From Patescibacteria group bacterium (lineage in GTDB: Bacteria > Patescibacteriota > Patescibacteriia > 2-01-FULL-39-33), in NCBI GenBank assembly GCA_041649575.1, contig JBAZMW010000001.1, positions 1-32,000 of the forward strand: a DNA stretch of 32,000 nt, read 5' to 3'. Under the pieces are notes generated by a model, which saw only the letters and a list, made by a program, of their open reading frames with translations, did not search any database and was not told the origin of the DNA. Positions 1 to 23,869 of this stretch are shown here, piece by piece; within the stretch, counting starts at the first letter, position 1, and each line of letters opens with the position of its first letter. Both the position numbers and the translations under genes were made by a program.

Positions 1-1
1 T

Positions 2-295
2 GAACTGCTACACTTGGGCTACGACATTTCCGATGACGATGCCACGGCCGAAGCCAAGAAGCGCGGCTATCGTCGGGCCACGCCTCGCGAAGTGCTCACT
101 CTGGGCGCCAAATACCCGGACCTGCAGCGGCAGTTCCCGATTGTCGCGGCTCCCACCGGCGACGGGGTGCTGTGCCTCGACGGGGACGGTGCTTTGCGCG
201 ACCTGTACGTCGGCCACTCCGAGGGCGATTGTTCCCGCATCTGTCGGTTCGCCGTCGTCCGCGAGCCTGACCGAATTGCCGAAGCGCAAGCGTAG
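2..295 (+). CDS. 3'-terminal fragment of a GC-rich hypothetical protein (reading frame open to the left window edge)
   Basis: The frame is open from nt 2 (ELLHLGYDISDDD...REPDRIAEAQA*). It is followed by a strong terminator at 340-382. The DNA is very GC-rich. I recognise no motif. Other long ORFs here overlap on both strands, as expected in GC-rich DNA. Confidence 0.5.
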   Translation, partial: ELLHLGYDISDDDATAEAKKRGYRRATPREVLTLGAKYPDLQRQFPIVAAPTGDGVLCLDGDGALRDLYVGHSEGDCSRICRFAVVREPDRIAEAQA

Positions 296-339
296 GCAAG
301 ACGGGCAGTTGATCCCATAATCCCATGACCTTTGACCCC

Positions 340-382
340 GGTCCGCTCAGCACCTAGTGCCTGAGCGGACCTTTTCTTTTTT
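340..382 (+). terminator. Rho-independent terminator after the GC-rich ORF
   Basis: An 11-bp perfect stem, ggtccgctcag (340-350) / ctgagcggacc (361-371), is followed by ttttctttttt. Confidence 0.8.
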
Positions 383-443
383 CAGAAAATCACGGGCATG
401 CCCGTGGGAATCTACTTTTCTGAATTAAAAAATATGTTATAAT
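381..443 (+). promoter_or_regulatory. Nested palindrome plus an extended -10 element directly upstream of the 450 ORF
   Basis: A perfect 16-bp palindrome, cacgggcatgcccgtg (391-406), is nested in an outer 9-bp inverted repeat, ttcagaaaa (381-389) / ttttctgaa (416-424). TATAAT lies at 438-443, only 6 nt before the ATG at 450, which implies a leaderless or near-leaderless mRNA. Confidence 0.35.
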
Positions 444-449
444 CTCTTT

Positions 450-1553
450 ATGAAATACATCTTTATCTTAGGCAACAATCCCGAATTATCGCAGGCGGAA
501 ATCGAGGCGGTTTTGCCACAATTAAAAATTGTTAAAAATAGCAGTCAGTATCTGGTGGCTGAAACACCAAAATTTGATTGTCAGGAAATGATGGCGCGAC
601 TCGGCGGCACTGTTAAGATCGGAATTTTTTTGGGTGATAAGCCGGAGGTCGGGCCGATTTTGGGTTCGGCTGGTTCGCAGACCGGCCAAGGACGATTTAA
701 TTTTGGTTTAAGTTTTTACGGTCAAAAGCCAAGCAGTTGGGGTATGAAAATCAAGAAGACATTAAAGGAGCAGGGCATCGGTTGTCGACTAGTGACCAGT
801 CGTGAGCCAGCTTTGTCATCGGTGATTGTCACTAAAGAAAAGTGCCATGATTTTTTGATCGGTCCTGATTTTTTCGGATTGACTTGTGCGGTGCAGGATT
901 TCGAGGAATACTCCAACCGCGATTTCGGGCGGCCCAAAAGCGATGCGCTCTCCGGCATGTTGCCGCCGAAATTAGCCAAGATGATGATCAATCTGGCCCA
1001 AGTTAGTGAAGATAAAATTATTCTCGATCCTTTTTGCGGCTCGGGCACGATTTTATCTGAAGCATTGGCTTTGGGTTATCACAATTTAATTGGTAGCGAC
1101 CTTTCTACCAAAGCGGTCAATGATAGCCAAGAGAATTGTGAGTGGCTGATTAAAAATTTTCAGCTAAAGAATTATAGTCTTAAGTTTTTTAATCTGGATG
1201 CTAGAAAGTTATCTCTGAAAATAAAAGAACAGACCATGGACGCGATTGTCACTGAGCCCTATTTGGGTCCGCCGATAAAGGGCAATGAGTCACCAGAGAG
1301 GATTAAAAAAAATTTAGCTGAACTAGAGGTTTTATACTTAGAAACTTTTCAGGAATTAAAAAAGATCCTGCGGTCTAAGGGTAAATTGGTTATAGTCATC
1401 CCCGAGTGGCACCTAGGTGCTAAAATTTTTCAGCTAAATATCTTTGACGGCATTGCCAAATTGGGTTATGAGAGAAAGGACAAAAATAATTTGTTTTACA
1501 GGCGGGAAGATCAAAAAGTTTGGCGACAAATAATAGTTTTAGAAAAAAAGTAA
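450..1553 (+). CDS. SAM-dependent RNA (guanine-N2-type, UPF0020/Trm11-like) methyltransferase
   Basis: The C-terminal half carries the class I methyltransferase motif I, LDPFCGSGTILSEA, and a motif IV-like VTEPYLGPP. The N-terminal ~150 aa look like an RNA-binding module. Confidence 0.7.
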   Translation: MKYIFILGNNPELSQAEIEAVLPQLKIVKNSSQYLVAETPKFDCQEMMARLGGTVKIGIFLGDKPEVGPILGSAGSQTGQGRFNFGLSFYGQKPSSWGMKIKKTLKEQGIGCRLVTSREPALSSVIVTKEKCHDFLIGPDFFGLTCAVQDFEEYSNRDFGRPKSDALSGMLPPKLAKMMINLAQVSEDKIILDPFCGSGTILSEALALGYHNLIGSDLSTKAVNDSQENCEWLIKNFQLKNYSLKFFNLDARKLSLKIKEQTMDAIVTEPYLGPPIKGNESPERIKKNLAELEVLYLETFQELKKILRSKGKLVIVIPEWHLGAKIFQLNIFDGIAKLGYERKDKNNLFYRREDQKVWRQIIVLEKK

Positions 1554-1557
1554 ATTA

Positions 1558-2643
1558 ATGAAAACTGTTATTAAAATTTTTTTAGGGCTGGCGGCGATTC
1601 TGGCGCTGGTTTTTGTTTTTTTGAGCCCCAAGATTTTCAACTCATCGAAGTCGGAAACGCCGAGTCCAGCAGCTAGCCAGCTGCTAGTCGAAGCCGCCAA
1701 AGAGGAGGCGGTCTTGCCGCCGGCATCGGAGCCGGTGGAAGTGAACCTGGTTTTTGGCGGCGACGTAATGCTGTCTCGGGTGGTGGGACAGAAAATGGTT
1801 AAGCACCAGGATTACGCCTGGCCGTTTGTCAAAGTGGCTGATATTTTAAGCCAAGCTGATTTGGCAATAGTAAATTTGGAATCGCCGTTTACCCTAAACA
1901 GCAAAAGTTATTTTGTGCCAACCGGGTCGTTTAGCTTTAATGCCGACCCCAAAAGCGTGGCCGGCTTGCGGTTGGCGGGAATCGATTTGGTGTCTCTGGC
2001 CAACAATCATGCCAAAAATCAAGGCGAAAGAGGATTGGCAGACAGCTTTAAAGTTTTGTCGGACAACGGGATAAAGTATGTTGGCGCTGGTCAGAATTTG
2101 GCCGAAGCGCGGCGGCCACAAGAAGTGGAAATAAAAGGCAGAAAATTTGTTTTTTTGGCTTACGCTTATCCCAATGATTCTTCGGTAGCTGCCGCCAATC
2201 GGGCCGGTATTGCCAGCATGGATTTGACTTTGGCTCAAGCAGAAATAAAGAAATTAAAAAAACAGGCAGCGACTTCCACTGTTATTGTTTTGATGCATGC
2301 TGGCACGGAATATACCAATTTACCAAATTGGCAGCAGCAAGAGTTTGCCAGGGGCGCAATCGACGCCGGCGTGGATTTGGTGGTGGGACATCACCCGCAC
2401 TGGGTGCAGCAGACGGAAAGCTATCAGGGCAAAAAGATCATTTATTCCCTGGGCAATTTGGTTTTTGACCAGATGTGGTCGCCGGAAACCCAACAGGGAG
2501 CGTTGGCCAAGGTTGTTTTTAAAGAAGGGAAAGTAACTGGTTTGGAATTTATCCCGATTCATATTTATGACTACGGCCAGCCGCAAATAGTCAGCGATTT
2601 GTCGGAGAGGCAAGAGATCTTGAAAAGAATGGGAGAAAATTAA
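1558..2643 (+). CDS. CapA-family metallophosphatase-fold protein (PGA_cap), membrane-anchored
   Basis: There is an N-terminal TM helix. CapA-type motifs are present: GGDVMLSR, LANNHAKNQG, MHAGTEY, VVGHHPHW. Confidence 0.85.
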   Translation: MKTVIKIFLGLAAILALVFVFLSPKIFNSSKSETPSPAASQLLVEAAKEEAVLPPASEPVEVNLVFGGDVMLSRVVGQKMVKHQDYAWPFVKVADILSQADLAIVNLESPFTLNSKSYFVPTGSFSFNADPKSVAGLRLAGIDLVSLANNHAKNQGERGLADSFKVLSDNGIKYVGAGQNLAEARRPQEVEIKGRKFVFLAYAYPNDSSVAAANRAGIASMDLTLAQAEIKKLKKQAATSTVIVLMHAGTEYTNLPNWQQQEFARGAIDAGVDLVVGHHPHWVQQTESYQGKKIIYSLGNLVFDQMWSPETQQGALAKVVFKEGKVTGLEFIPIHIYDYGQPQIVSDLSERQEILKRMGEN

Positions 2644-2653
2644 CAATTAATTT

Positions 2654-2794
2654 CTAACCTAACATAATATTAAAATTGTGGCCGATAAAACCTATAATCG
2701 GCTTGACCAGACTTTCCCAGACACCAATAATTACAGCCACCGAGATAATTAAAATGGCGTAGAAGACTATTTTTAATTTTTTATCGTCATCCAT
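2654..2794 (-). CDS. Possible 46-aa single-pass membrane peptide (absent from the ORF track, below its size cutoff)
   Basis: My own translation gives MDDDKKLKIVFYAILIISVAVIIGVWESLVKPIIGFIGHNFNIMLG*. It is co-directional with ychF and 67 nt downstream of it. It has a hydrophobic core but no clear RBS. Confidence 0.3.
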   Translation of the reverse strand: MDDDKKLKIVFYAILIISVAVIIGVWESLVKPIIGFIGHNFNIMLG

Positions 2795-2861
2795 ATAGTT
2801 TTCAAATCATTAAAACACTAGAACATTAAAATAAAAAAACAAACCAGAATTTTTTAATTAT

Positions 2862-3911: not shown

Positions 3912-4040
3912 ATTTTAAAACTAAAGAATAAAAGCTAAAAATTTAAAGTTTTTTAAAATTGATAATTTTTAGTATAGTACAAAAAGCTGATATTTTCAAT
4001 ACCCTTGAAAATAACCGCCGGTTGTTTTAAGATGTAAAGC

Positions 4041-4580
4041 ATGCAGGAAAAATACCAAAATTTTTTAGAGACCGTCTTCACGGTTTTTGACGTGGAAACC
4101 TCGGGCTTGGATCCGTTCAAAGACGAGGTCTTGGAAATCGCCGCCCTAAAAACCAAAGGCAAAGAAATTGTCGATCGTTTTGAGGCGCTGATTCAGCCGA
4201 CCAAACCGGTGACTCCGGAAGTCGAAAAAATCCACGGACTTAATGAAATATATTTACTGGTTAATGGCAGGAACGCCAACCAGGTTTTCAGGGATTTTCT
4301 GGATTTTGCCGGAGATTCGATTATTGTCGGGCACAATATCAAAGAGTTTGATTGGTTGTTTGTTTTAAACCAGGCCAGGCGGCTAAATTGGCCCAGCCCT
4401 GGCAACAAACTCATTGATACCCTGGAATTGTCGCGAAAACTTCTGTCTTTGCCAGCCTATAATCTGACCAGCGTGGCCAAGAGTTTGGGCTTTGAACATA
4501 ATAATGCTCATCGCGCCATGCCGGACGTGGAAGTAAATACCAAAATTTTTTGGGAGTTGATGGAGAGGTTGTTTAAGTAA
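4041..4580 (+). CDS. DnaQ/epsilon-like DEDDh 3'-5' exonuclease
   Basis: It has Exo I FDVETSGLDP, Exo II GHNIKEFDWLF and Exo III HRAMPDVE. Confidence 0.85.
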   Translation: MQEKYQNFLETVFTVFDVETSGLDPFKDEVLEIAALKTKGKEIVDRFEALIQPTKPVTPEVEKIHGLNEIYLLVNGRNANQVFRDFLDFAGDSIIVGHNIKEFDWLFVLNQARRLNWPSPGNKLIDTLELSRKLLSLPAYNLTSVAKSLGFEHNNAHRAMPDVEVNTKIFWELMERLFK

Positions 4581-4589
4581 TTTGTTATA

Positions 4590-4637
4590 AAAAAATCGAC
4601 CCCGTACCTATTAGCTTATTCAGCTTTCGGTGCGGGG
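4590..4637 (-). terminator. Weak candidate terminator for the GC-rich 187-aa ORF
   Basis: On the minus strand, ccccgcacc pairs with ggtacgggg (one mismatch, ~20-nt loop), followed by tcgattttttt. Confidence 0.35.
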
Positions 4638-4675
4638 GGACGCTATGTACTGTTGAGTGCCGCGCGCTTCAGCGG

Positions 4676-5239
4676 TCACTCGGGCGGGCGGTTGTTCGCT
4701 CGGACGAAGAAAGTCTTTTGGTCGGTGGCGTTGTAGGTGTTATTGGGGTAGGTGCACGCTTCCACCACCCAGACCATCTCTTTGCCGTCGTCTGCCATCT
4801 TTCTTGTGAATTCTGGCTCGCTCTCCGGTGTTGTGGGTCTGATATCGACGAAGGCGATTCGCTGGTTGGGCAGACTCTCCGCGCTCTCGGCGGGGTTTAG
4901 GCCGAAGGTCAAGTGCCATAGCCCGATGGTTTTGTCGTATTGCGGCTTGCCAGCGACCTCGCGCCAGCCGAGCTCCGTGATTCGCAGGCCTAGGGTCGAG
5001 GTGTCCTCGCTGGTTGTGGAGGCATTGGTGGCCACTGGCGCTATTTTGTTGGCCAACAGGTTTGTCACAAGTACGCCGGCAACCGCCACAATAAGGCTGA
5101 GCCCGACCACTTTCGCAATTCCCCATTCGCGGCGCGGGTCTTCCTGTCTGTTGTCCCTTTCTGCCCCCAGACAGGCGACGCCAATGGAAAGCAACACAGC
5201 GATGAAGTAACCGATCACTAATAAAACATCGTGATCCAT
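4676..5239 (-). CDS. GC-rich orphan membrane protein (two predicted N-terminal TM helices plus a ~110-aa extracytoplasmic domain)
   Basis: It is the longest ORF in the GC-rich block. A good SD precedes the start (aaggagagagaggcATG). The TM segments are VLLVIGYFIAVLLSIGVACLGA and VVGLSLIVAVAGVLVTNLL. I recognise no family. Confidence 0.6.
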   Translation of the reverse strand: MDHDVLLVIGYFIAVLLSIGVACLGAERDNRQEDPRREWGIAKVVGLSLIVAVAGVLVTNLLANKIAPVATNASTTSEDTSTLGLRITELGWREVAGKPQYDKTIGLWHLTFGLNPAESAESLPNQRIAFVDIRPTTPESEPEFTRKMADDGKEMVWVVEACTYPNNTYNATDQKTFFVRANNRPPE

Positions 5240-5321
5240 GCCTCTCTCTCCTTCTAAACGTACACTTGGCGATTCTTTAAGGCGATCGCCGCTAGCCTTC
5301 TGGTCATCAAACCATTATATA

Positions 5322-5350
5322 ATTATATAATATATAGATACTTTTGTCAA
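5322..5350 (-). promoter_or_regulatory. Consensus sigma70-type promoter driving the 4676-5239 ORF
   Basis: The minus strand reads TTGACA (5350-5345), a 17-nt spacer, then TATAAT (5327-5322). It lies in AT-rich DNA just outside the GC-rich block and predicts a ~75-nt leader. Confidence 0.5.
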
Positions 5351-5491
5351 TAAAAAGCATTATTTGGCCATACTAATTTTAATAGAATTATTTAAATTTA
5401 GATAAAAAAACAGCCTTGAATTTTTTAATGCTGCCTTTTTTCTTTTGCGTCAGTTTTTCTTTTTATTAAAAAAAGAAAAGTGACAAGTATT

Positions 5492-6319
5492 TTATTTTCG
5501 AGAAAGTAAAAAAGTATTTTTTAGCAGGCAGGCTACGGTGAGCGGGCCGACGCCGCCGGGAACCGGCGAGACCCAGCCGGCAACCTCAATAACTTTAGGA
5601 TCGACGTCGCCGACAATTTGGCCGTTTTTTCTATTAATACCCACATCAATGACAATAGCGCCCGGTTTGACCATTGATTTTTTGAGCGCCAGTGCTTGGC
5701 CCAGGGCAATAATAATAATATCAAAATTTTGGGAGTCAGTCGGAAGGGTCGTGCTGGTTTTTATTTTTTTGATTTTCAGATTTTTTTTGAGATTTTTTTT
5801 CAGTCCTTGCAAAAAAACATTACTCTTGCCGATGATTAACGTTGATTTGTCGGATAATTTCTCGTTGGTGTTGGAAAGTAATTCTGAAACAGCGGCGACG
5901 GTTGGTGGAATAATTTGAGAATTTTTGTTTTGCGGGTGAAAACCGTCAACGTCCTTGAGAGGCGAGATGGCCTTGATGATTTTTTCAGCCCCGAATTTTT
6001 TTGGCAGTGGCAATTGGATAATGATGCCGTTGGTTTCCGGGTCTTGGTTTAGAAATTTTATCAAACTAATCAGCTCGGCTTCGGAAATATTGGGATAGCA
6101 ATCCTGGTTGCAAAGATACTTATGAAAACTAAGACCCACTTCCAGGCAGGCCTTTTCTTTAAGCTGGATATAGATTTTTGAAGCCGGATCGTCGCCAACC
6201 AAAACTGCCGCCAGGCCGGGCGTCTGGTTGGCGGCAATAATTTTTTTTCTCAAATCCAGTTTGATTTTATCCGCCAGCGCTTTTCCGTCCAGGATAACGG
6301 CGGATTTTTTGGTGGCCAT
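5492..6319 (-). CDS. folD: Bifunctional methylenetetrahydrofolate dehydrogenase/methenyl-THF cyclohydrolase
   Basis: It has VLVGDDPASKIYI and the C-terminal PGGVGPLTVACLL. It abuts glyA directly. Confidence 0.9.
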   Translation of the reverse strand: MATKKSAVILDGKALADKIKLDLRKKIIAANQTPGLAAVLVGDDPASKIYIQLKEKACLEVGLSFHKYLCNQDCYPNISEAELISLIKFLNQDPETNGIIIQLPLPKKFGAEKIIKAISPLKDVDGFHPQNKNSQIIPPTVAAVSELLSNTNEKLSDKSTLIIGKSNVFLQGLKKNLKKNLKIKKIKTSTTLPTDSQNFDIIIIALGQALALKKSMVKPGAIVIDVGINRKNGQIVGDVDPKVIEVAGWVSPVPGGVGPLTVACLLKNTFLLSRK

Positions 6320-7555
6320 TTAATAAATAGGAAAATTTTTAGTCAGCTTTAGAACTTCTTTTTTTATTTTTTTTCTCAAATTCGAGTCGGTGGGTCTCTC
6401 GAGGATAGCGGCGATCCAGGAGGCGATGAGCCTCATCTCTTTTTCCCTCATCCCGCGGGTGGTGAGAGCCGGAGTGCCCAGGCGGATGCCGGAAGGATTG
6501 AGCGGTGTGGCCGGATCGAAAGGGATCAGGTTGGCATTGGTATAAATAAGTGCCTCGGCCAAAAGGTTGGCGCCGTCACGTCCAGAGATTTTCAGCGGCT
6601 GGCAATCGAGCAAAACCAAATGATTTTGAGTGCTGTCGGCTACCAATTTTAGGCCGTTGCTTTTCATGGCCTCGGCCAGGGCTTGAGCGTTTTTGACTGT
6701 TTGTTTCTGATCTTTTTTGAATTTACCGGTCAACGCTTCGGCAAAACAGACAGCTTTGGCGGCGATGACATTTTCTAAAGGTCCACCTTGCAGGCCGGGA
6801 AAAACGGCACGGTCTATGGCTTTGGCTAATTCTTGTTTACAGATAATAATGGCGCTTCTGGGTCCACGCAGGGTTTTGTGAGTGGTGGTGGTGACAATAT
6901 CGGCCCAGGGAAATGGCGAGGGATGCACGCCGCCAATAATTAGTCCGGCAATATGCGCGATGTCGGCCAAAAGCAGCGCCCCGACTTCTTTGGCAATTTG
7001 ATAAAATTTTTGGAAATCAATTTTTTGGGTATAAGCGGTGGCGCCGCAAACAATCATCCTAGGTTTTTCTCTTTTGGCAATTCTATTAATCTCGGCATAA
7101 TTCAGGCGGCAGGTTTTGGGATCAACACCATAATAAGAAAAATCGAAAAGTTTGCCGGAAAAATTAACCGGACTGCCGTGGGTGAGGTGACCGCCAGCGC
7201 CCAAGTCCATGGCCAGAATTTTATCACCTGGTTTTAGGAGTCCGAGATAAACCGCCAAGTTGGCCGAAGAGCCGGAATGCGGCTGGACATTGGCATGCCA
7301 TTTTTGGCCATCAAGGGTGAAGATTTTCAGCGCCAAAGATTTAGCAATATTTTCTATCTCATCAATGGTTTCGTTGCCGGTGTAGTAGCGCCGGCCGGGG
7401 TACCCTTCCGAGTATTTATTGGAAAGCGGCGTGCCCATGGCGCCAAGTACGGCCGCCGAGGCGTAGTTTTCGGAAGGAATCATAACCAGCCCGCGGCGTT
7501 GGCGGTCGGTTTCTTGTTTAATCAAGCTAAAGATTCGTTGGTTTTCGCTGGCCAT
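6320..7555 (-). CDS. glyA: Serine hydroxymethyltransferase
   Basis: It has the PLP-lysine motif TTTTHKTLRGPR, plus SENYAS and GYPGRRYY. Confidence 0.95.
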   Translation of the reverse strand: MASENQRIFSLIKQETDRQRRGLVMIPSENYASAAVLGAMGTPLSNKYSEGYPGRRYYTGNETIDEIENIAKSLALKIFTLDGQKWHANVQPHSGSSANLAVYLGLLKPGDKILAMDLGAGGHLTHGSPVNFSGKLFDFSYYGVDPKTCRLNYAEINRIAKREKPRMIVCGATAYTQKIDFQKFYQIAKEVGALLLADIAHIAGLIIGGVHPSPFPWADIVTTTTHKTLRGPRSAIIICKQELAKAIDRAVFPGLQGGPLENVIAAKAVCFAEALTGKFKKDQKQTVKNAQALAEAMKSNGLKLVADSTQNHLVLLDCQPLKISGRDGANLLAEALIYTNANLIPFDPATPLNPSGIRLGTPALTTRGMREKEMRLIASWIAAILERPTDSNLRKKIKKEVLKLTKNFPIY

Positions 7556-9738: not shown

Positions 9739-9760
9739 TTTTAAGTTTAAAAATTAATTA

Positions 9761-9790
9761 AAAATCCCCCCGCTTAAGCGGGGGGATTTT
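9761..9790. terminator. Bidirectional terminator between convergent genes
   Basis: It is a perfect 30-nt palindrome, aaaatccccccgctt/aagcggggggatttt, with A and T tracts on both sides. Confidence 0.75.
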
Positions 9791-9798
9791 AAGCTGGA

Positions 9799-10266: not shown

Positions 10267-10286
10267 ATCATTTGTCTAAAATCTCG

Positions 10287-11930
10287 CTAAATTGATTTTA
10301 ACATATAAGTTCCGGAAAGTGTATAGCCCATTTTTTTGTAGTATTCTCTCACGCCGATGCCGGCAATAACAGCGATTCCTCGGCTGTGCTTGGGACAAGT
10401 TTTTTTCAGCCCTTTCTTGGTAATTTTTTCTGCTTCCAACAGTAATTTTTTGCCCAACCCCAGGTGTTGGACTTCACCCTTTTTGCCCAGTCCGGCGAGC
10501 TGGCCGTAAGTATGCAGCTCGCGGATGAGGGCCGCGGCATGAAGTTCGGGAATGAAATTTTTTTCCGAGTCATTATTTATTCTCAAGCGTAAAAAAGCAT
10601 ATAAAATTTTTTCATCCGGCGACTCGAAAGACAAAAAATATTCTTGGCCACCGCTGGCTCGGTATTTTCTGATTTTTAATTTTGTCTTTTCATCTTTTAG
10701 CCTTAAATTTTTAACATGGCCTACTTCCCGGCAACGAATACACTTACAATTCCAACCATCTTTCTCAGCTTGCTCGTTAATTAATTGCCTCAGATTGGTA
10801 ATTTTGTTGCCAGCGGCAATGCTTTCCTCTGGGATATCGCGAATCAGCCTCGTGATGCGTACCCAGGGAGGCGTGATTTTTTTAATCTTAATTAGTAAGT
10901 CTAAAAGCTGGCGGTCAGAATAGGGTCGGTATTTTTTTGTTTGCCACAACCGGTAAAGCCGAGCGTCTTTATTGACGACACAAGGATAAATTTTTACCAT
11001 ATCCGGCATATAATTGCCGTCAGTGTAAATTTTTTTAAACATAGCCAGGTCTTTGGCTGGTGTTGAGCCGTAGAGATTGGGCATCAGATGCAGGTTGATT
11101 TTAAAACCAGAATTTTTGAGCAGTTTGATAGCCTCAATACTTTGCTTAACGCTGTGGCCACGGCGGTTTAATTTTAAAATTTTATCGTCAGTGTGCTGGA
11201 TGCCAAGTTCCACCCGGGTGCAACCCAAACTTCTCATTTGTACAATCTCTTTTTCATTAATAAAGTCGGGTCGGGTTTCCAGGGTGAGTCCGATACAGCG
11301 GTGCCTGGCCGTTTCGTTTCTTTTTTGCGCTGTCGCCAGATCTTTACTGGTTCGGCCGTTGAGCGCGTCGAAGCAACGTTTAATAAACCAGTTTTGGTAT
11401 TGTCGGGGGTGATAGCTCCAGGTGCCGCCCATGACAATTAGTTCAATTTTGTCGACCGCATGGCCGTTGGCTTGAAGCGCCTTGAGGCGCATCGCCACTT
11501 GGCGATAAGGATTAAAATCGTTTAAGATGGCGCGCATCACCGCCGGCTCGTTGGAGAGATATGACTTGGGCATGCCGCTTTCGGTCGGGCAAAAAAGACA
11601 CCGGCCGGGGCAGGGGTGGGGCTTGGTGAGCACCGAAATCACGGCCACTCCGGAAAGAGTGCGGACGGCGCGTTTGGTCAGGAATTTTTCTAAGTTTCTG
11701 TTTTTTAGTTTCGGTTGCTTTTTGATGATTTTATGATATGCTGAAAGTAGTTTGGACTTTTCCGGTGGTGGCAGTTTTAGCTTGCCGAACTGATGTCGAG
11801 CCAGGTTTAAAAAGTCCTTCTCGGTTTGAGGATTTTTAGTTATTAAACATTTAATTATTTTTTTTATGTCATCGCGAGGGAGCGATAGCGACCGTCCGCC
11901 TAGGCTCGGCGAGACTGGTGGCGATCCCAT
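10287..11930 (-). CDS. elp3: Elp3-type radical-SAM/GNAT tRNA-modification enzyme homolog
   Basis: It has the radical-SAM cluster motif CPGRCLFCP, a central TIM-like radical-SAM core, and a C-terminal GNAT motif (QHLGLGKKLLLEAEKI). The start is uncertain. I chose the ATG at 11930. The track ORF extends to 11966, across the divergent GIY-YIG start. The first ~20 codons are encoded by a repeat element. Confidence 0.85.
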   Translation of the reverse strand: MGSPPVSPSLGGRSLSLPRDDIKKIIKCLITKNPQTEKDFLNLARHQFGKLKLPPPEKSKLLSAYHKIIKKQPKLKNRNLEKFLTKRAVRTLSGVAVISVLTKPHPCPGRCLFCPTESGMPKSYLSNEPAVMRAILNDFNPYRQVAMRLKALQANGHAVDKIELIVMGGTWSYHPRQYQNWFIKRCFDALNGRTSKDLATAQKRNETARHRCIGLTLETRPDFINEKEIVQMRSLGCTRVELGIQHTDDKILKLNRRGHSVKQSIEAIKLLKNSGFKINLHLMPNLYGSTPAKDLAMFKKIYTDGNYMPDMVKIYPCVVNKDARLYRLWQTKKYRPYSDRQLLDLLIKIKKITPPWVRITRLIRDIPEESIAAGNKITNLRQLINEQAEKDGWNCKCIRCREVGHVKNLRLKDEKTKLKIRKYRASGGQEYFLSFESPDEKILYAFLRLRINNDSEKNFIPELHAAALIRELHTYGQLAGLGKKGEVQHLGLGKKLLLEAEKITKKGLKKTCPKHSRGIAVIAGIGVREYYKKMGYTLSGTYMLKSI

Positions 11931-12294
11931 GGAGTTTGAGAGCGATTTGTTTTTATGAATAACCATTATTATCTTTATATTTTAACTAATAAATACAATA
12001 GAGTATTGTATACTGGAGCGACTAGTAACTTATTAAGAAGAGTTTGGGAACACAGGAATAAGTTAAATAAAAATTCTTTTACTGAAAGGTATAATGTTAA
12101 TAAGTTAGTCTATTATGAAGTATATTATTCTGTTACGGACGCCATTTTCAGAGAAAAACAAATCAAAGGAGGCGACAGAACAAGCAAGGAGACACTGATT
12201 AATAAATTTAATCCGGAGCGGAAGGATTTATATGGAGAAATGGTAGAAAATTAAAAACACGGGATTGCTTCGTCGTTTCACTCCTCGCAATGAC
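11868..12294 (+). mobile_element. Putative mini mobile unit: GIY-YIG ORF bracketed by terminal inverted repeats
   Basis: The left end is gtcatcgcgagggagcgatagcgacc...gcgatccc (11868-11928). The right end is gggattgcttcgtcgtttcactcctcgcaatgac (12261-12294). Its reverse complement, gtcattgcgaggagtgaaacgacgaagcaatccc, matches both extremities of the left end. Confidence 0.5.
11955..12254 (+). CDS. GIY-YIG nuclease-family protein (UPF0213-like)
   Basis: It has the N-terminal YYLYILTN...VLYTGATSNLLRRVWEH, the GIY/YIG-type motif with a conserved R and E. It is small (99 aa) and AT-rich. Confidence 0.85.
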   Translation: MNNHYYLYILTNKYNRVLYTGATSNLLRRVWEHRNKLNKNSFTERYNVNKLVYYEVYYSVTDAIFREKQIKGGDRTSKETLINKFNPERKDLYGEMVEN

Positions 12295-13162
12295 ATTTAT
12301 GAAACAACAACGCATTAATAAGATTCTACAACAAACGCGTGATGTTTACAATAAAATAGCGCTGGACTTTTCGGACACTCGCGGTCATTGGTGGAAAGGC
12401 ATGGGCAGTTTTAATAAATATGTCAGACCGGGTGACCGAGTGCTAGATTTGGGTTGCGGTAATGGCCGGATGGCGGAAATTTTTGAGGGTTCGCAAATCG
12501 AATACTTGGGAATTGACAATAGCGAGGAGTTGATAAAAATAGCTCGTGGGAGATTTAAAAATAAATCTTGGGTGAGGTTTAGGGTGGGTGATGTATTGCA
12601 GTTGTCATCCCGAGGAGCCGATGGCGACGTGGGGGTCTCGTCTAATATTGAAGGAGGCGGGATTGCCACCAGTCTCGCCGAGCCTAGGCGGACGGTCGCT
12701 TCACTCCCTCGCAATGACAGTTTATTTGATTTGGTTTTGCTGATAGCGGTTTTGCATCACCTTCCGACCAAGGAGCTGCGACTTAAAGTTTTAGAAAATA
12801 TTTTTCAGAGTTTAAGGCCCGGTGGCCGGCTGGTGATGCTAAACTGGAATTTATGGCAGGTGTTTGGCAGTTTCGATTATAAATTTCGCTATTGGAAATA
12901 CCTTTTTAACTGGTCCGAAAAAATAAAGCGTGGCGTTTGGGGTTTTTCTGACGCTTTTGTACCCTGGAAGATGAGGGCCGGCCAAAAGCTGGCCGAGCAG
13001 GACTGGCAGTTACGCTATGTGCATTCTTTTACCATTAGAGAAACCAAAAAATTATTACGGCAGGCCGGCTTTGTGGTTGAGGGTATTACTTATGAAAAAA
13101 GGGATAAAAGAGTGGGCGTTTTGTCGGGCGACCACTCATTGGCCGTGGCAATAAAAAAATGA
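12290..13162 (+). CDS. Class I SAM-dependent methyltransferase (Methyltransf_11-like) carrying an in-frame repeat-derived insertion
   Basis: Motif I is VLDLGCGNGR, and FDLVLLIAVLHHLP follows later. The more likely start is the ATG at 12299, because 12290 lies inside the repeat. Residues ~106-144 (SSRGADGDVGV...SLPRNDS) are encoded by the 12604-12718 element. Confidence 0.8.
   Translation: MTFMKQQRINKILQQTRDVYNKIALDFSDTRGHWWKGMGSFNKYVRPGDRVLDLGCGNGRMAEIFEGSQIEYLGIDNSEELIKIARGRFKNKSWVRFRVGDVLQLSSRGADGDVGVSSNIEGGGIATSLAEPRRTVASLPRNDSLFDLVLLIAVLHHLPTKELRLKVLENIFQSLRPGGRLVMLNWNLWQVFGSFDYKFRYWKYLFNWSEKIKRGVWGFSDAFVPWKMRAGQKLAEQDWQLRYVHSFTIRETKKLLRQAGFVVEGITYEKRDKRVGVLSGDHSLAVAIKK
12604..12718. repeat. 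115-bp MITE-like palindromic element of the GIY-YIG-associated repeat family, inside the methyltransferase CDS
   Basis: Its termini, gtcatcccgaggagccgatggcgac (12604-) and gtcgcttcactccctcgcaatgac (-12718), are inverted copies of each other. Its right 60 nt (12659-12718) are a near-identical reverse complement of 11868-11928, including a 34-nt perfect match. Confidence 0.6.
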
Positions 13163-13174
13163 TAGAATGAGGAT

Positions 13175-14554
13175 ATGAAAATCAACTCTAATATTTTCAA
13201 AGAATACGATATCCGTGGCAAGTATCCCGGTGAACTGGACGAGCAGACAACTCAAGCTTTGGGTTTGGCTTTTGCCAAAATGATCAAGACCAAAAGAATC
13301 ATTGTCGGCCGCGACGCGCGGCCGGAATCAGAAAAAGTTTTTTGGCCACTCTTGTTTGGTCTGGCCAAAGGCGGCATGCAAATTTATGATTTGGGGGTTT
13401 GCTCGACGCCGGAATTGTTTTTCGCGGTCGGCGACAAAAAGATCGAAAGCGGCGTCATGATCACCGCCTCTCATTCTCCGGCCGGTCAGACCGGTTTCAA
13501 GTTTTGTAATGAGCAGGGTGTTGTTTATGGCCTAAAAACCGGGCTCAAAAAATTAAAATACCTAGCCGATCAAGAAATTAAAAAAATAAATAAACCGGTG
13601 TTGCAGCCGGCCAAAGTCGAAAAAGTCGCTTTGGCGGCGTTGGCCAAAGATTATCAGAAATTCGCTTTTTCTTTTGTGAAGCCGGCGGCGATAGCCGGTT
13701 TTAAAATGGTTATAGACGCTTCCGGCGGCTCGAGCTACAGATTAATAAATCGCCTGGTCCAGAAACTACCGCTGCAGACAATAAAAATAAATTTCAAAGA
13801 AAAAGACAAATATCCAGACCACGACTTGAATCCGCTGCTTTCGGAAAATCAACGAGTGGCTGCCAGAGAAATAAAAAAGCAACAAGCCGATTTGGGCGTG
13901 GTTCTTGACGGCGACGGTGATAGAATAGTTTTTTTGGATGAACGAGGCAGATTTGTCGAGCCTTATTATCTTAACTGCTTGCTGGCGGAAATATTTTTGA
14001 AGCTTAGGCCCAAAATGACAGTGCTGTTTGACGCGCGTTTGAATCTGGCGATCACCGAAGTGATAAAAAACAATGGCGGCCGGCCGCTTAGCCACCGCAG
14101 CGGCTATGCCAACTTCATTGATTTTATGACCAAAAAAAAATTACTGTTCGGCTGCGAAAACTCCGGCCATTTTCTGATTAATTTCGCCCTGAAAAAAAAG
14201 CGGCAATATGTTTACGGCGACACTTTAATAATTTTATTGCTGATTTTGAAATATTTGAAGGAGAAAAATTTAAAATTATCGCAAGCGATTGAGCCGTTTG
14301 AAAAAAAATACGTCATTTCCGGCGAACAGAATTTTAGAGTCAAGGATTTTAAAAAACTGATGCTAAAAATTAAAAAAGAATTCAGGGGAAACCGTCTGGA
14401 GACGATTGATGGTTTGTCTGTCTGGAGCCAAGGCGGGGACTGGTTTTTCAATATCCGGCCTTCGCATACCGAGCCGGTAGTGCGTCTGAACGTTGAAGCC
14501 AAAAATAAAAAAATCATCAATCAGTTGGTCAAAAAAATCAAATTGATAATTTAA
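13175..14554 (+). CDS. Phosphomannomutase/phosphoglucomutase (alpha-D-phosphohexomutase family)
   Basis: The phosphoserine loop is ITASHSPAGQTGFK (S-H-S-P rather than the usual S-H-N-P). The metal loop is LDGDGDRIVFLDE. A sugar-binding GCENSGH is present. Confidence 0.85.
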   Translation: MKINSNIFKEYDIRGKYPGELDEQTTQALGLAFAKMIKTKRIIVGRDARPESEKVFWPLLFGLAKGGMQIYDLGVCSTPELFFAVGDKKIESGVMITASHSPAGQTGFKFCNEQGVVYGLKTGLKKLKYLADQEIKKINKPVLQPAKVEKVALAALAKDYQKFAFSFVKPAAIAGFKMVIDASGGSSYRLINRLVQKLPLQTIKINFKEKDKYPDHDLNPLLSENQRVAAREIKKQQADLGVVLDGDGDRIVFLDERGRFVEPYYLNCLLAEIFLKLRPKMTVLFDARLNLAITEVIKNNGGRPLSHRSGYANFIDFMTKKKLLFGCENSGHFLINFALKKKRQYVYGDTLIILLLILKYLKEKNLKLSQAIEPFEKKYVISGEQNFRVKDFKKLMLKIKKEFRGNRLETIDGLSVWSQGGDWFFNIRPSHTEPVVRLNVEAKNKKIINQLVKKIKLII

Positions 14555-14563
14555 TTTTATATT

Positions 14564-14836
14564 ATGCCTGAAGAAAAAATTTCTGCCGAAGTGGCCAAAA
14601 ATATCGGTGGACAACTAGGCATTGACTGGTCGAAATTCGATGTCGAGCAGTTTAGAAAGGGGATGGAGGTGGAATTGGAGCACGGCAAGAGGAGTGCCGA
14701 AACCAATGTCACCAATAATAACCCATTAATTACTGGCAAGATTGCCCTGGCGCATTTAAATGAGTTCCCCGATTACTATACGCGGCTGGATAAGATGGAA
14801 AAAGAGGCGGATGATTTTTGGGGCAAGAAAAATTAG
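14564..14836 (+). CDS. Small conserved hypothetical protein (DUF5661-like by recollection)
   Basis: It is a 90-aa ORF with the motifs EVELEHG...TNVT and IALAHLNEFPDYYTRL. It starts 10 nt after the upstream gene. The family assignment is from memory only. Confidence 0.55.
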   Translation: MPEEKISAEVAKNIGGQLGIDWSKFDVEQFRKGMEVELEHGKRSAETNVTNNNPLITGKIALAHLNEFPDYYTRLDKMEKEADDFWGKKN

Positions 14837-14849
14837 TTAAAAAATAATT

Positions 14850-14886
14850 AGAGCCGGGGGAAGCGGATGCTCGCTCCCTCGGCTCT
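14850..14886. terminator. Bidirectional terminator shared by convergent genes
   Basis: The stem agagccggggg (14850-14860) / ccctcggctct (14876-14886) has one G-T wobble, plus an inner agcg/cgct stem. T-rich tracts follow on both strands. Confidence 0.65.
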
Positions 14887-14919
14887 TTGTTTGGTTCGAT
14901 GTACGGCTGCGGCTACCCC

Positions 14920-16311
14920 CTACCGGTGAGCTCTGGCCATACGGCCTGGTTTCCGGTTCCGCGGCGGGAACTCGCGATGCAGCAATTCGTCGATTCGGTG
15001 CCGCAACGCCCAGCCCAAGTTGCCCATACGCGAGGCAATCTCTTGGAGATTGAACAGCTCGTCCGGTTCGTAGACCTGGTCGGCCATCCGGGCGCGTTGC
15101 TTGCTGGTCATGACTCGCAGCGGCTTGGTCAGCGAGTCCATTTCCGCGTAGGGATTGAACTGCGACAGAATCTGCCTTACCTCGCGGTCGGCGTGGACGT
15201 ATTTGGCCGCTTGACCACCCCAGGCCAACGAGCGGAAAGACTGGTCCACCACCCGCCAACGTTGAGGCAGTGACAGATCGGTGCGGTCCGGCTTGACGTC
15301 GAGCACGATGGGAATCTCCGGATGCTGGTGAAGCACAAACTTGATCCAGAAGCAGACTTCCCGCAGCGCCGCCAGATCAAGGTCGGGTACGCCGCCGCGT
15401 TGTCGGCCATTGAGGTGGACACAGGCCAGCCGACGCAGATAGGCAGCCAGCGCATAGGCCTTGATGAACAGCTCAAAGGCCATATCCTCGTGGGCCACTT
15501 CCGGGTTGGTCTTGAGAAGCACACACTTGGCGACTCGCGGCGGCAGAAGCCCTTGCATGATCCGCATGAAGAGCAGGGCTTCGGCCGTGGTGGCGATGAC
15601 GATTTCCCGAACCGGCTCAGTCGGCTTGGATTCCTCCGAAAGGACAAGCGGCTGCTCCGGCGTGGCTACTCCCAAATCACTGGCGTACGCGCCGACTTCA
15701 GCCCAATGACCCATGCGCCAAGACCAGGCCAAGTGCGGCGGCTTGAGCTCGGAGTCACCTTCCTCGCCCCCCGGCCAGCCGATGATTTCACGGACGCGGC
15801 TGTAGATCAGCTTAGTCGGCCAAAACGTGTTAGCCGTATTGATAGCCGCGGCCAGTTCGACAAGCTTGAAGCCCTTGACTAGCGCCGCTTGCCGGACAGC
15901 CTGGGCTATGTTGGTGGTGGCTCCGCCGACGAAACAGGGATCGGCGAACAGGTTGCAGGTGACGGCCTCGACGCAGATACCCATAGGCGCGGCAGCCCTA
16001 ACAAACGCCTCACCCGTTTCCACGATTTCCCGCCGTGACGACTTGAGAGAAAGGCTGAGGTCGCTGTCATGGAGCTGTGCAATCCTGATGTTGCGCCTGG
16101 CCATACCTTCCAAGACCCGGCTCACCATCTGTGACGCGAAGGACTTGTTCTGGAAGAGGTTGTGTCCGTCGGTCATCATACTCCAGATGCCCATGCCCCC
16201 GGTTTCACTGGTTTCGTCGTCCAGCACGAAGGGACGATTCTCCAGCTTTATTGCTACTCGCACCAGCCTATCGTCCCTTGAGGCTGGCGGCTTCTTTCCC
16301 GTTTTTTTCAT
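14920..16311 (-). CDS. GC-rich divergent xylose-isomerase-fold (TIM-barrel, metal-dependent sugar isomerase-like) protein
   Basis: By-eye collinear matches to class I xylose isomerase as I remember it: MGIWSM~FGLWTV, LHDSDL~FHDDDL, TCNLFADPCFVGGATTN~TTNLFTHPVFKDGGFTAN, GWPGGEEG~AWGGREG, SEESKPTEP~IEPKPNEP, NPEVAHEDMA~NPEVGHEQMA, HLNGRQ..PDLDL~HIDLNGQ..YDQDL, LDVKPDRT~FDFKPPRT. SD-like aaaggacgagccATG precedes the start. Confidence 0.7.
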   Translation of the reverse strand: MKKTGKKPPASRDDRLVRVAIKLENRPFVLDDETSETGGMGIWSMMTDGHNLFQNKSFASQMVSRVLEGMARRNIRIAQLHDSDLSLSLKSSRREIVETGEAFVRAAAPMGICVEAVTCNLFADPCFVGGATTNIAQAVRQAALVKGFKLVELAAAINTANTFWPTKLIYSRVREIIGWPGGEEGDSELKPPHLAWSWRMGHWAEVGAYASDLGVATPEQPLVLSEESKPTEPVREIVIATTAEALLFMRIMQGLLPPRVAKCVLLKTNPEVAHEDMAFELFIKAYALAAYLRRLACVHLNGRQRGGVPDLDLAALREVCFWIKFVLHQHPEIPIVLDVKPDRTDLSLPQRWRVVDQSFRSLAWGGQAAKYVHADREVRQILSQFNPYAEMDSLTKPLRVMTSKQRARMADQVYEPDELFNLQEIASRMGNLGWALRHRIDELLHREFPPRNRKPGRMARAHR

Positions 16312-16404
16312 GGCTCGTCCTTTCCATTAATTCGCACTTCCCAATGTTGCACAATGTTGTCCAAGGTCCGTCTCGCCAACAAACCAGTTGGTGAGTTTCA
16401 TTAC

Positions 16405-16432
16405 AGTATAGCAAAAAGAATATTTTTGTCAA
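16405..16432 (-). promoter_or_regulatory. Near-consensus sigma70-type promoter for the xylose-isomerase-like gene
   Basis: The minus strand reads TTGACA (16432-16427), a 16-nt spacer, then TATACT (16410-16405). It predicts a ~85-nt leader. Confidence 0.45.
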
Positions 16433-16498
16433 TGCTTATTTAATGTTGTTTTTTAGAAAAAAAGCACATAGAAGAAAATTGCAGTTATAATAATTAGT

Positions 16499-16704: not shown

Positions 16705-16714
16705 GAATTGGTTT

Positions 16715-23663: not shown

Positions 23664-23669
23664 ATTGGC

Positions 23670-23856: not shown

Positions 23857-23869
23857 AAAAAGTAAAAAT

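What the first reader, a model, noticed from the sequence alone, without database searches (positions are those of the whole stretch)
1..16440. Three high-GC, single-gene cassettes embedded in a low-GC housekeeping backbone
Three blocks (about 1-335, 4640-5290 and 14890-16400) are visibly foreign in composition.
- Hand counts of single 60-nt lines give 43/60 G+C (121-180), 39/60 (4921-4980) and 35/60 (15001-15060).
- The backbone gives 28/60 (6601-6660, glyA), 29/60 (23461-23520, porD) and 11/60 (14221-14280).

Each block holds exactly one convincing ORF and sits between conserved housekeeping genes. The two complete blocks are stand-alone transcription units.
- Promoters: TTGACA-17-TATAAT (5350-5322) and TTGACA-16-TATACT (16432-16405). 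Both lie in AT-rich DNA just outside the GC-rich block and are followed by 75-85-nt leaders with SD sites.
- Downstream hairpins: 340-382, 4590-4637 (weak) and 14850-14886.

I see no integrase, transposase, flanking direct repeat or tRNA-adjacent attachment site, so the acquisition route is unexplained.

Inference: these are repeated horizontal acquisitions from a high-GC donor that have been wired to host-type promoters. If the organism is an episymbiont, its host is an obvious candidate donor. The products are one divergent sugar-isomerase-fold enzyme and two orphans, which is not typical mobile-element cargo.
Basis: partly seen in the sequence, partly recalled or inferred. Interest (0 to 1): 0.7.

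Follow-up and report, generated by a model that had tools for sequence, protein, structure and literature searches.

The report
GC-rich accessory genes in a Patescibacterium
Three unusually GC-rich single genes really are embedded among housekeeping genes of a tiny-genome (Patescibacteria) bacterium, but they are a mixed bag of horizontally acquired accessory genes, one of them a hypervariable retroelement-target protein, which is a known kind of genome variability.

Summary
Blocks 1-372, 4628-5314 and 14853-16396 have 64%, 57.5% and 60% G+C against 43.7% elsewhere. Each exceeds every equal-sized backbone window, and their ORFs have GC3 of 0.71-0.76 against a backbone maximum of 0.585.

Chimeric assembly is unlikely for blocks 2 and 3: an ENA contig and, for block 3, a Logan contig are 100% identical across their junctions.

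The single-donor reading is only partly supported, because the blocks differ in kind.
- **Block 1** is not an orphan. It is the C-terminal part of a diversity-generating-retroelement (DGR) variable protein. Its family shows adenine-only TR/VR mismatches next to a reverse transcriptase. An 80% paralogue ends another contig of the same MAG, which probably explains the assembly break at position 1.
- **Block 3** is a rare, divergent class-I xylose-isomerase homologue that keeps 9 of 10 catalytic residues.
- **Block 2** is a true orphan with two predicted membrane helices.

Relatives keep the backbone synteny but fill the same or neighbouring slots differently, with other GC-elevated and also GC-poor single genes. 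The best reading is a flux of single-gene accessory units with host-type promoters and terminators. No donor was identified. This is a new member of a known kind, of moderate interest.

The parts
2..295 (+). Block 1 ORF. This is the 3' part (97 codons plus stop) of a DGR-type variable protein with a C-type-lectin-like domain. It is truncated by the contig start and corresponds to NCBI WC518_00005.
   Evidence: GC 0.653, GC3 0.755. An 80% paralogue, WC518_03285, sits at the end of another contig. The family has 1164 representatives. The model of relative P0017 has pLDDT 85, and its top fold hits are C-type lectins.
157..241 (+). Putative variable region (VR) of block 1.
   Evidence: It is in register with the VRs of L029 and L028, whose mismatches to their TR are all at TR adenines. 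Against homologues in L018 and L025, differences over 143-238 fall mostly at codon positions 1 and 2 (19 of 30, 26 of 35). Upstream (2-142) they fall mostly at position 3 (19 of 27, 24 of 33). The stretch has only 9 A in 85 nt. The paralogue P0015 differs mainly here.
242..265 (+). Conserved 3' end of the VR (TGTCGGTTCGCCGTCGTCCGCGAG, encoding CRFAVVRE).
   Evidence: It is invariant or nearly so across family members and lies at the 3' end of the TR/VR repeats in L027 and L029.
340..383 (+). Intrinsic terminator of block 1 (14-bp stem plus T run). The GC change-point falls at 372.
   Evidence: -25.6 kcal/mol, z -6.75. Change-point.
4676..5239 (-). Block 2 ORF of 187 aa. It is an orphan with two predicted N-terminal transmembrane helices and a beta-rich C-terminal part.
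   Evidence: GC 0.574, GC3 0.713. Only itself was found among 5.8 billion proteins. There was no significant hit in Pfam, PHROGs, NCBIfam or PADLOC. AF2 gave pLDDT 50, with helices 3-29 and 37-70.
5240..5350 (-). Block 2 promoter (TTGACA-17-TATAAT, 5350-5322) and a leader of about 75 nt with a Shine-Dalgarno site. The GC change-point falls at 5314.
   Evidence: 12 of 12 match, the best in 17 kb. Sequence. Change-point.
4588..4641 (-). Weak terminator hairpin plus T run downstream of block 2. The GC change-point falls at 4628.
   Evidence: -19.2 kcal/mol, z -2.4. Change-point.
14920..16311 (-). Block 3 ORF of 463 aa, a divergent class-I xylose-isomerase-like metalloenzyme (NCBI WC518_00085).
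   Evidence: GC 0.603, GC3 0.739. PDB xylose isomerases match at E 4e-13 over residues 40-397. H54, D57, E181, K183, E217, H220, D255, D257 and D287 are conserved, and D245 is replaced by His. TIGR02631 scores 72 bits against a cut-off of 447. Only two close homologues exist, at 43-44% identity.
16312..16432 (-). Block 3 promoter (TTGACA-16-TGcTATACT, 16432-16405) and a leader of about 86 nt. The GC change-point falls at 16396.
   Evidence: 11 of 12 with an extended -10, the second best in 17 kb. Sequence. Change-point.
14838..14886 (-). Intrinsic terminator of block 3 (stem 14850-14886 plus T run). The GC change-point falls at 14853.
   Evidence: -25.1 kcal/mol, z -5.6. Change-point.

Best explanation
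The three blocks are genuine accessory genes of foreign composition. Each sits as a single transcription unit in a variable intergenic slot of an otherwise conserved Patescibacteria (Buchananbacteria-like) backbone. They are of three different kinds, not three samples of one donor.

- Block 1 is the C-terminal C-type-lectin-like domain of a DGR variable protein, including its variable region. The family is endemic in Patescibacteria and their phages. A reverse transcriptase copies a template repeat with adenine-specific errors and overwrites the VR. The genome holds at least two copies that share an identical stretch of 47 aa (141 nt of coding sequence), which probably explains why assemblies break at window position 1.
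- Block 3 is a rare, divergent class-I xylose-isomerase-type enzyme. Its metal and catalytic residues are almost intact, with one Asp-to-His ligand change, so it is probably an active sugar isomerase or epimerase of unknown specificity.
- Block 2 is an orphan small membrane-anchored protein.

Inferred mechanism of acquisition: DNA from GC-richer genomes is taken up and recombined into intergenic slots without a dedicated integrase. This plausibly occurs by natural transformation and recombination, as in Neisseria minimal mobile elements. The genes are then expressed from near-consensus sigma-70 promoters and closed by intrinsic terminators.

What is shown: the composition, the transcription-unit anatomy, the independent assemblies, presence or absence in relatives, and the DGR nature of the block-1 family. 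What is inferred: the route of integration, the donors, and current DGR activity on this particular copy.
For: - Composition and codon usage.
- Amino-acid bias (GARP up, FYMINK down), which argues for long residence in a GC-richer genome.
- Promoters and terminators.
- Independent assemblies: an ENA contig is 100% identical over window 4920-26311, and a Logan contig over 12671-16579.
- Relatives L005 and L007 keep rSAM-MT11-PGM...trpS-RNaseJ and exo...folD-glyA synteny without blocks 2 and 3.
- Relative L025/L026 (75-82% aa identity) has different single-gene inserts in neighbouring slots: P0166 GC 0.55, o209 0.54, o390 0.57, o242 0.56, and a PF05635 gene at 0.31.
- Block-1 family: 1164 representatives.
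- L027: VR/TR with 22 of 22 mismatches at TR adenines, next to a reverse transcriptase at 1e-111.
- L029/L028: 13 of 13, 14 of 14 and 13 of 13 mismatches at TR adenines. Differences between samples occur only in the VR, at codon positions 1 and 2.
- Block 1 itself shows an excess of position-1 and -2 differences in 143-238.
- Fold: C-type lectin hits.
- Literature: CPR DGR targets typically lack recognisable domains (PMC8144416). Individually transferred genes and islands make up to 13% of Patescibacteria genomes (PMC12455944). Natural competence has been shown in Saccharibacteria (PMC10633639). ComEC is encoded in relative L018.
- Block 3 homology and residues. Its homologue P0002 lies in a ~52% GC sugar-metabolism cluster.
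Against: - No TR or reverse transcriptase lies within the 32-kb window, so DGR targeting of this particular copy is inferred from family membership and the variation pattern.
- One related target (P0166) has an identical VR across contigs from several samples, and one more contig differs by a single base. Not all copies are active.
- No donor was identified for any block.
- The integration route is untested. No empty site at nucleotide resolution is available, because the relatives are too divergent.
- The block-1 family is GC-elevated in every CPR genome examined (0.53-0.65 against 0.38-0.45). This fits a resident family with its own compositional bias as well as it fits repeated import.
- All assemblies may derive from related read sets, so raw-read support was not checked.
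Confidence: 0.6

Rival explanations
1. One reading: all three cassettes are repeated acquisitions from one high-GC donor, possibly the episymbiont's host, later wired to host-type promoters.
For: The three ORFs share codon usage, and each is better predicted by the other two than by the backbone. Their GC3 values are similar, 0.71-0.76. The best PDB matches for block 3 are xylose isomerases, and the best NCBIfam model is xylA_Arthro; these are the actinobacterial type by my own knowledge.
Against: The block-1 family is a Patescibacteria and phage DGR-target family. Its close relatives lie in related CPR genomes, not in a host lineage. Block 3 is only 24-29% identical to genuine xylose isomerases, and its two close relatives are unnamed metagenomic proteins. 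Block 2 has no homologue at all. Relatives also carry GC-poor cassettes in the same slots.
Confidence: 0.15
2. An endogenous compositional process rather than import. The cassettes are resident fast-evolving genes whose GC was raised locally, for example by GC-biased gene conversion among paralogues, or by adenine avoidance and A-to-G-biased mutagenesis in DGR targets.
For: The block-1 family is GC-elevated in all six genomes examined. The VR is A-poor (9 of 85) and is the most GC-rich part of block 1, at 0.69. TR-to-VR changes are mostly A>G. The paralogues share an identical stretch of 47 aa.
Against: Block-1 GC is already 0.63 upstream of the VR. Blocks 2 and 3 are single-copy and have no link to a DGR. 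Amino-acid composition is shifted, not only GC3. Block 3's homologues sit in GC-richer contexts elsewhere.
Confidence: 0.1
3. Assembly artefact: GC-rich fragments of another organism were joined to a Patescibacteria contig.
For: Block 1 lies at the extreme contig end. The ENA contig also starts there, 15 nt before window position 1. The L001 GC-rich segment of more than 11 kb could itself be a chimeric join.
Against: Blocks 2 and 3 are internal. They are bounded within a few nucleotides by a host-type promoter and terminator, and they are identical in an independent ENA assembly and, for block 3, a Logan assembly. Block 1's terminator and the downstream AT-rich DNA are continuous with the next gene. 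Its family shows the same cassette layout in relatives from several samples.
Confidence: 0.03
4. RNA-mediated origin: the cassettes are retro-copies of foreign transcripts, which would explain why GC-rich DNA runs from about the transcription start to the terminator.
For: The change-points at 5314 and 16396 lie 8-9 nt downstream of the -10 hexamers, and 372, 4628 and 14853 lie at terminator stems. Reverse transcriptases (DGRs) are common in this phylum.
Against: Promoters and T runs are AT-rich in any genome, so the coincidence is expected. Related cassettes (P0166) have AT-rich leaders, so the rule does not generalise. No reverse transcriptase lies in the window. No poly-A or target-site duplication was seen among the repeat families displayed.
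Confidence: 0.03

Closest known systems
DGR variable (target) proteins with a C-type-lectin fold (Bordetella phage Mtd, Treponema TvpA, the CPR 'clade 2' targets of Roux et al. 2021, PMC8144416)
   Same: Block 1 belongs to a family with the VR at the extreme C-terminus of a CLec-like domain, a TR a few hundred nt downstream, adenine-only TR/VR mismatches, and an adjacent reverse transcriptase in L027. Multiple or tandem targets per TR occur (L029). No other recognisable domain is present, as reported for CPR targets.
   Different: The window copy has no TR or reverse transcriptase within 32 kb, so it is a remote or orphan target. Its gene is markedly GC-richer than its genome. The fold match to solved CLec structures is weak (E 0.03-0.3).
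Individually transferred genes and genomic islands of Patescibacteria (PMC12455944)
   Same: Foreign-composition genes sit in streamlined CPR genomes, mostly without recognisable mobility genes. Donors are often unrecovered.
   Different: Here each unit is a single gene with its own near-consensus promoter and terminator. The units sit in slots whose content differs between relatives, and two of the three have essentially no homologues.
Neisseria minimal mobile elements and Correia repeats (my own knowledge; PMC2649163 was retrieved but not read)
   Same: Different cassettes lie between the same conserved flanking genes in different genomes, with no integrase or transposase. The phylum is naturally competent (shown for Saccharibacteria). 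A palindromic intergenic repeat lies beside two of the slots.
   Different: Exchange by flanking homology has not been demonstrated here. The relatives available are 50-82% identical, not strains of one species. No DNA-uptake sequence is known.
Class I xylose isomerase (Streptomyces, Arthrobacter; TIGR02631)
   Same: Block 3 aligns over about 330 residues and keeps H54, D57, E181, K183, E217, H220, D255, D257 and D287.
   Different: Identity is only 24-29%, and the score is 72 bits against a cut-off of 447. The metal ligand D245 is His in all three family members. There are an N-terminal extension of about 40 aa and a C-terminal extension of about 65 aa. No xylose-utilisation neighbours are present.
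Integron gene cassettes
   Same: Compact single-ORF units of foreign composition, often orphans, inserted one by one.
   Different: There is no integrase and no attC. The cassettes carry their own promoters and terminators and are dispersed, not arrayed.

Membership tests
DGR variable protein (for block 1) | Homology to proteins whose C-terminal VR pairs with a TR that differs only at TR adenines | tested here: met
   The family profile hits P0018 and P0019 at E 1e-39 to 1e-40. L029 TR against its VRs gives 13 of 13 and 14 of 14 mismatches at A, and against the L028 VR 13 of 13. L027 gives 22 of 22 at A.
DGR variable protein (for block 1) | A cognate TR for this copy's VR | tested here: inconclusive
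   No second copy of window 1-300 exists in the 32-kb window. The rest of the 245-kb contig and the other contigs of the MAG could not be read.
DGR variable protein (for block 1) | A DGR reverse transcriptase in the same genome | not testable with these tools
   No reverse transcriptase is among the window's ORFs.
DGR variable protein (for block 1) | Hypervariation confined to the VR, at codon positions 1 and 2 | tested here: met
   Window against L018 and L025: over 143-238, position 1+2 differences are 19 of 30 and 26 of 35. Over 2-142 they are 8 of 27 and 9 of 33. The paralogue P0015 is identical for 47 aa and then differs in a mosaic pattern.
DGR variable protein (for block 1) | C-type-lectin fold of the VR-bearing domain | tested here: inconclusive
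Class I xylose isomerase, TIGR02631 (for block 3) | Score above the curated equivalog cut-off | tested here: not met
   71.9 bits against a cut-off of 447. No Pfam family was reported, even at E 5.
Class I xylose isomerase, TIGR02631 (for block 3) | Catalytic and metal-binding residues (H54, D57, E181, K183, E217, H220, D245, D255, D257, D287) | tested here: inconclusive
   Nine of ten are conserved and invariant in the three family members. D245 is His299 in all three. This is compatible with a metal-dependent isomerase or epimerase, but not with an orthodox XylA site.
Genomic island or prophage | Integrase or recombinase, tRNA-adjacent attachment site, flanking direct repeats | tested here: not met
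   Nothing identified in the window is an integrase or transposase. The only tRNA is at 19689-19773. No flanking direct repeats appeared among the families displayed. There were no PHROG hits and no relatives of blocks 2 or 3 in IMG/VR.
Integron cassette | attC recombination site and a nearby IntI integrase; cassettes without promoters | tested here: not met
   The cassettes carry their own consensus promoters. The downstream hairpins are ordinary terminators with T runs. No integrase is present.
Minimal-mobile-element-like variable slot | Conserved flanking genes holding different inserts in related genomes | tested here: met
   PGM|trpS holds DUF5661 plus block 3 here and a PlsX-like gene in L007. 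exo|folD holds block 2 here and a 1033-aa beta-helix protein in L007. porD|porA holds o116 here and DGR-target P0166 in L025. The slot before UvrA is empty here and holds o390 in L025.
Minimal-mobile-element-like variable slot | Exchange by transformation and homologous recombination of the flanks | not testable with these tools
   Only indirect support exists: ComEC is encoded in relative L018, and competence has been shown in Saccharibacteria (PMC10633639).

The most novel reading that the evidence does not exclude
This Patescibacteria lineage runs a dedicated, integrase-free system for exchanging single-gene cassettes. Complete transcription units (consensus promoter, leader, GC-rich ORF, terminator) are swapped into intergenic slots marked by a ~215-nt long-hairpin repeat. 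They are drawn from a GC-rich reservoir, an unsampled mobile element or partner organism, that also carries the DGR target family.
Probability: 0.12. Interest if true: 0.65.

Novelty: new member of a known kind. Interest (0 to 1): 0.38.

Why it matters
The result shows at nucleotide resolution how a streamlined, probably episymbiotic bacterium keeps a conserved housekeeping backbone while changing single accessory genes in fixed intergenic slots.

It links one of the apparent orphans to the DGR hypervariation machinery that is abundant in this phylum. That link also explains a recurrent assembly break.

The divergent xylose-isomerase-like enzyme, with an Asp-to-His change in its metal site, and the strongly promoted orphan membrane protein are candidates for host-interaction or niche functions. 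None of this overturns current views, because horizontal transfer and DGRs are both well documented in Patescibacteria.

Tried and rejected
- **Metagenome scans.** Both found nothing, so block 1 could not be extended leftwards and the L001 island could not be walked. The queries were a block-1 DNA pattern and a protein from the end of the L001 island.
- **Exact look-ups.** Searches for the partial proteins P0014 and P0015 failed, so the paralogue's DNA and context are unknown.
- **Family libraries.** Pfam, PHROGs, NCBIfam and PADLOC gave nothing significant for blocks 1 and 2.
- **Structure of block 2.** Single-sequence AF2 gave low confidence (pLDDT 50), so no fold search was attempted.
- **Phage and plasmid searches.** tblastn of a family member against GenBank phages and PLSDB plasmids gave no match. 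IMG/VR scans for blocks 2 and 3 gave no relative.
- **RNA families.** Rfam found only the tRNA, so no riboswitch or known RNA lies in the leaders.
- **Block 2 as a DGR target.** Rejected: hhalign probability 0.2%.
- **Shared ends between cassettes.** None beyond generic promoter and terminator features.
- **GC-rich DNA as exactly the transcript (retro-copy idea).** Judged a by-product of AT-rich promoters and T runs. It does not hold for the P0166 cassette.

Full report
**Source.** The window is the start of a 244,907-bp contig of an NCBI MAG named "Patescibacteria group bacterium", with locus tags WC518_. Block 1 is WC518_00005 (partial), block 2 is WC518_00035 and block 3 is WC518_00085. The closest species-level genomes by a backbone protein are Candidatus Buchananbacteria (L005, 54% PGM identity) and an unclassified MAG (L007, 47%).

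**Observation.** Sliding GC shows three peaks.
- Likelihood change-points place the blocks at 1-372, 4628-5314 and 14853-16396.
- Their GC is 0.640, 0.575 and 0.600, against 0.437 outside.
- Each exceeds the maximum of every equal-length backbone window, with z = 4.1, 3.8 and 7.8.
- ORF GC3 is 0.755, 0.713 and 0.739, against a backbone mean of 0.497, sd 0.071 and maximum 0.585.
- In a leave-one-out synonymous-codon likelihood ratio, only these three of 30 genes score on the block side.
- The proteins are enriched in Gly, Ala, Arg and Pro and depleted in Phe, Tyr, Met, Ile, Asn and Lys. This points to long evolution in a GC-richer genome and not to a recent local mutational bias.

**Transcription units.**
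- The three downstream hairpins fold at -25.6, -19.2 and -25.1 kcal/mol, with z of -6.8, -2.4 and -5.6, and are followed by U runs.
- The GC change-points fall 8-9 nt downstream of the -10 hexamers and at the terminator stems.

**Not a chimera.** An ENA MEGAHIT contig (ERZ27247363) is 100% identical over window 4920-26311. A Logan contig (SRR8542065) is 100% identical over 12671-16579, which spans both block-3 junctions. From its coordinates, the ENA contig begins 15 nt before window position 1. It therefore contains block 2 entirely and also breaks inside block 1.

**Block 3.**
- It has only two close homologues among 5.8 billion proteins, at 43-44% identity. The next hits are PF01261 proteins, some named xylose isomerase by their source, at 24-29%.
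- PDB xylose isomerases match at E 4e-13 over residues 40-397.
- The alignment conserves H54, D57, E181, K183, E217, H220, D255, D257 and D287. D245 is His299, which is invariant in the three family members.
- TIGR02631 scores 72 bits against a cut-off of 447, so block 3 is not a XylA orthologue.
- Homologue P0002 lies in a ~52% GC contig, between an AP_endonuc_2-type TIM-barrel gene and a Gfo/Idh/MocA oxidoreductase. This is a plausible native sugar-metabolism context.
- Homologue P0003 opens a segment of more than 11 kb at 52-67% GC, next to a 34% GC backbone. That is either a second case of import or a chimeric contig.

**Block 2.** It matched only itself and no family library. A low-confidence AF2 model suggests two N-terminal helices and a beta-rich C-terminal part.

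**Block 1.**
- *Paralogue.* The 97-aa fragment has an 80%-identical paralogue, P0015 (WC518_03285). It is also partial and lies on a 191,558-bp contig of the same MAG. The two are identical for 47 aa and then differ in a mosaic pattern, up to a conserved CRFAVVRE.
- *Family.* A full HMMER scan of 1.84 billion representatives found 1164 relatives. They are typically about 200 aa long, with this domain at the C-terminus and no Pfam match.
- *Fold.* An AF2 model of the close relative P0017 has pLDDT 85. Its top hits in PDB and BFVD are C-type lectin domains, weakly but consistently.
- *L027.* In this IMG/VR contig a family member lies just upstream of a reverse transcriptase (phrog_1423, 1e-111). 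A 125-nt repeat pair is present in which all 22 mismatches are at adenines of the downstream copy.
- *L029.* For the closer subfamily, L029 carries two tandem targets and a downstream TR. Mismatches are 13 of 13 and 14 of 14 at TR adenines.
- *L028.* This contig comes from another sample. It differs from L029 only within the VR and only at codon positions 1 and 2, and its VR differs from the L029 TR at 13 of 13 adenine sites.
- *Block 1 itself.* Against its homologues, differences upstream are mostly at third positions, whereas over 143-238 they are mostly at positions 1 and 2.
- *Conclusion.* Block 1 is the VR-bearing C-terminal domain of a DGR variable protein. This fits published reports that CPR are enriched in DGRs whose targets lack recognisable domains (PMC8144416).
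- *Limits.* No TR or reverse transcriptase lies in the window. Targeting of this copy is therefore inferred.

**Context in relatives.**
- L007 keeps the backbone order. It has a PlsX-like gene where DUF5661 and block 3 lie, and a 1033-aa beta-helix protein where block 2 lies. L005 has no GC peak at all.
- A closer relative (L025/L026, 75-82% aa identity) differs in neighbouring slots:

| Slot | Window | L025/L026 |
|---|---|---|
| porD\|porA | o116, GC 0.30 | DGR-target P0166, GC 0.55 |
| trpS\|RNaseJ | empty | AdoMet_dc plus a second family member, o209, GC 0.54 |
| before UvrA | empty | o390, GC 0.57, GC3 0.71 |
| after UvrA | o335 | o242, GC 0.56 |
| porG\|porD | empty | PF05635 gene, GC 0.31 |

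- These cassettes show the same layout: a TTGACA promoter, a leader, the ORF and a GC-rich terminator.
- The phenomenon is therefore a lineage-wide flux of single-gene accessory units that deviate in GC in both directions. It is not repeated uptake from one high-GC donor.
- Horizontal transfer of individual genes and islands is already documented for Patescibacteria, at up to 13% of genome length (PMC12455944). Natural competence has been shown for Saccharibacteria (PMC10633639). ComEC is encoded in relative L018.

**Verdict.** It is wrong in treating the three blocks as equivalent orphan cargo from one donor. Block 1 is a DGR target from the phylum's own mobile gene pool, block 3 is a rare xylose-isomerase-like enzyme, and block 2 is a true orphan. 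Donors and the integration route remain unknown.

Noticed in passing
window 16490-16716 and 23661-23872; L025 8-240: A ~215-nt non-coding repeat is present in two direct copies that are 82% identical over 209 nt. Each folds into a long imperfect hairpin (z -8.8 and -4.0). Copy A lies between the block-3 promoter and the trpS 3' end, with the trpS terminator embedded in its centre. Copy B lies between porD and the low-GC orphan o116. A related copy sits at the contig end of the relative, in the same trpS-side slot. Part of its AT-rich palindrome also matches window 5438-5493, beside block 2. It resembles a MITE or Correia element and could mark the slots or act as a recombination hot spot.
   Followed up: partly
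window 11880-11940 and 12650-12712: A ~62-nt GC-rich repeat (42 nt at 98% complementarity) lies on the sense strand of two divergently transcribed genes. One copy is in the N-terminal extension of the radical-SAM gene and the other in a ~40-aa insert of the methyltransferase. They are read in different frames and bracket a small low-GC GIY-YIG gene (12006-12254). The pattern was found only in this genome among the fetched loci. It is reminiscent of Rickettsia palindromic elements that insert in frame (my own knowledge).
   Followed up: partly
L001 9500-21455: The block-3 homologue P0003 opens a run of more than 11 kb of same-strand genes at 52-67% GC. The run includes two AP_endonuc_2 TIM-barrel proteins and many small membrane or hypothetical proteins. 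It is joined to a 34% GC backbone (Fic, PPDK, TopA). There is no tRNA and no excess of promoter-like matches over shuffled sequence. It is either a large foreign island or a chimeric metagenome contig.
   Followed up: partly
L025 1-498 and L026 1-446: In the relative, both the JGI and the ENA assemblies end about 450-500 nt beyond the trpS 3' end. This is the slot that holds block 3 in the window, which suggests population heterogeneity or repeats at that slot.
   Followed up: no
L025 8746-9117: A PF05635 (23S rRNA-intervening-sequence protein) gene with GC 0.31 sits between porG and porD, about 500 nt upstream of the DGR-target homologue P0166. By my own knowledge, this four-helix-bundle family includes the DGR accessory protein Avd. 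No TR or reverse transcriptase was found within 20 kb. The P0166 VR is identical in seven loci drawn from contigs in several samples, and one further contig differs by a single base.
   Followed up: partly
L002 369-405 and 1993-2027: Two nearly identical 35-nt GC-rich terminator hairpins flank the block-3 homologue P0002 in a ~52% GC contig. One follows the upstream TIM-barrel gene and the other follows P0002 itself. This is a repeated terminator module.
   Followed up: no
window 23870-24220 and 11955-12254: Two small genes are as far below the backbone in GC as the blocks are above it: o116 has GC 0.30 and GC3 0.27, and the GIY-YIG ORF has GC 0.29. The accessory genes here therefore deviate in both directions.
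   Followed up: partly
L029 1-1254: A compact DGR array: two tandem target genes whose 3' parts are 92.6% identical over 257 nt, followed by one TR (1157-1254) that matches both VRs. The contig ends inside the TR, so the reverse transcriptase is not seen.
   Followed up: yes
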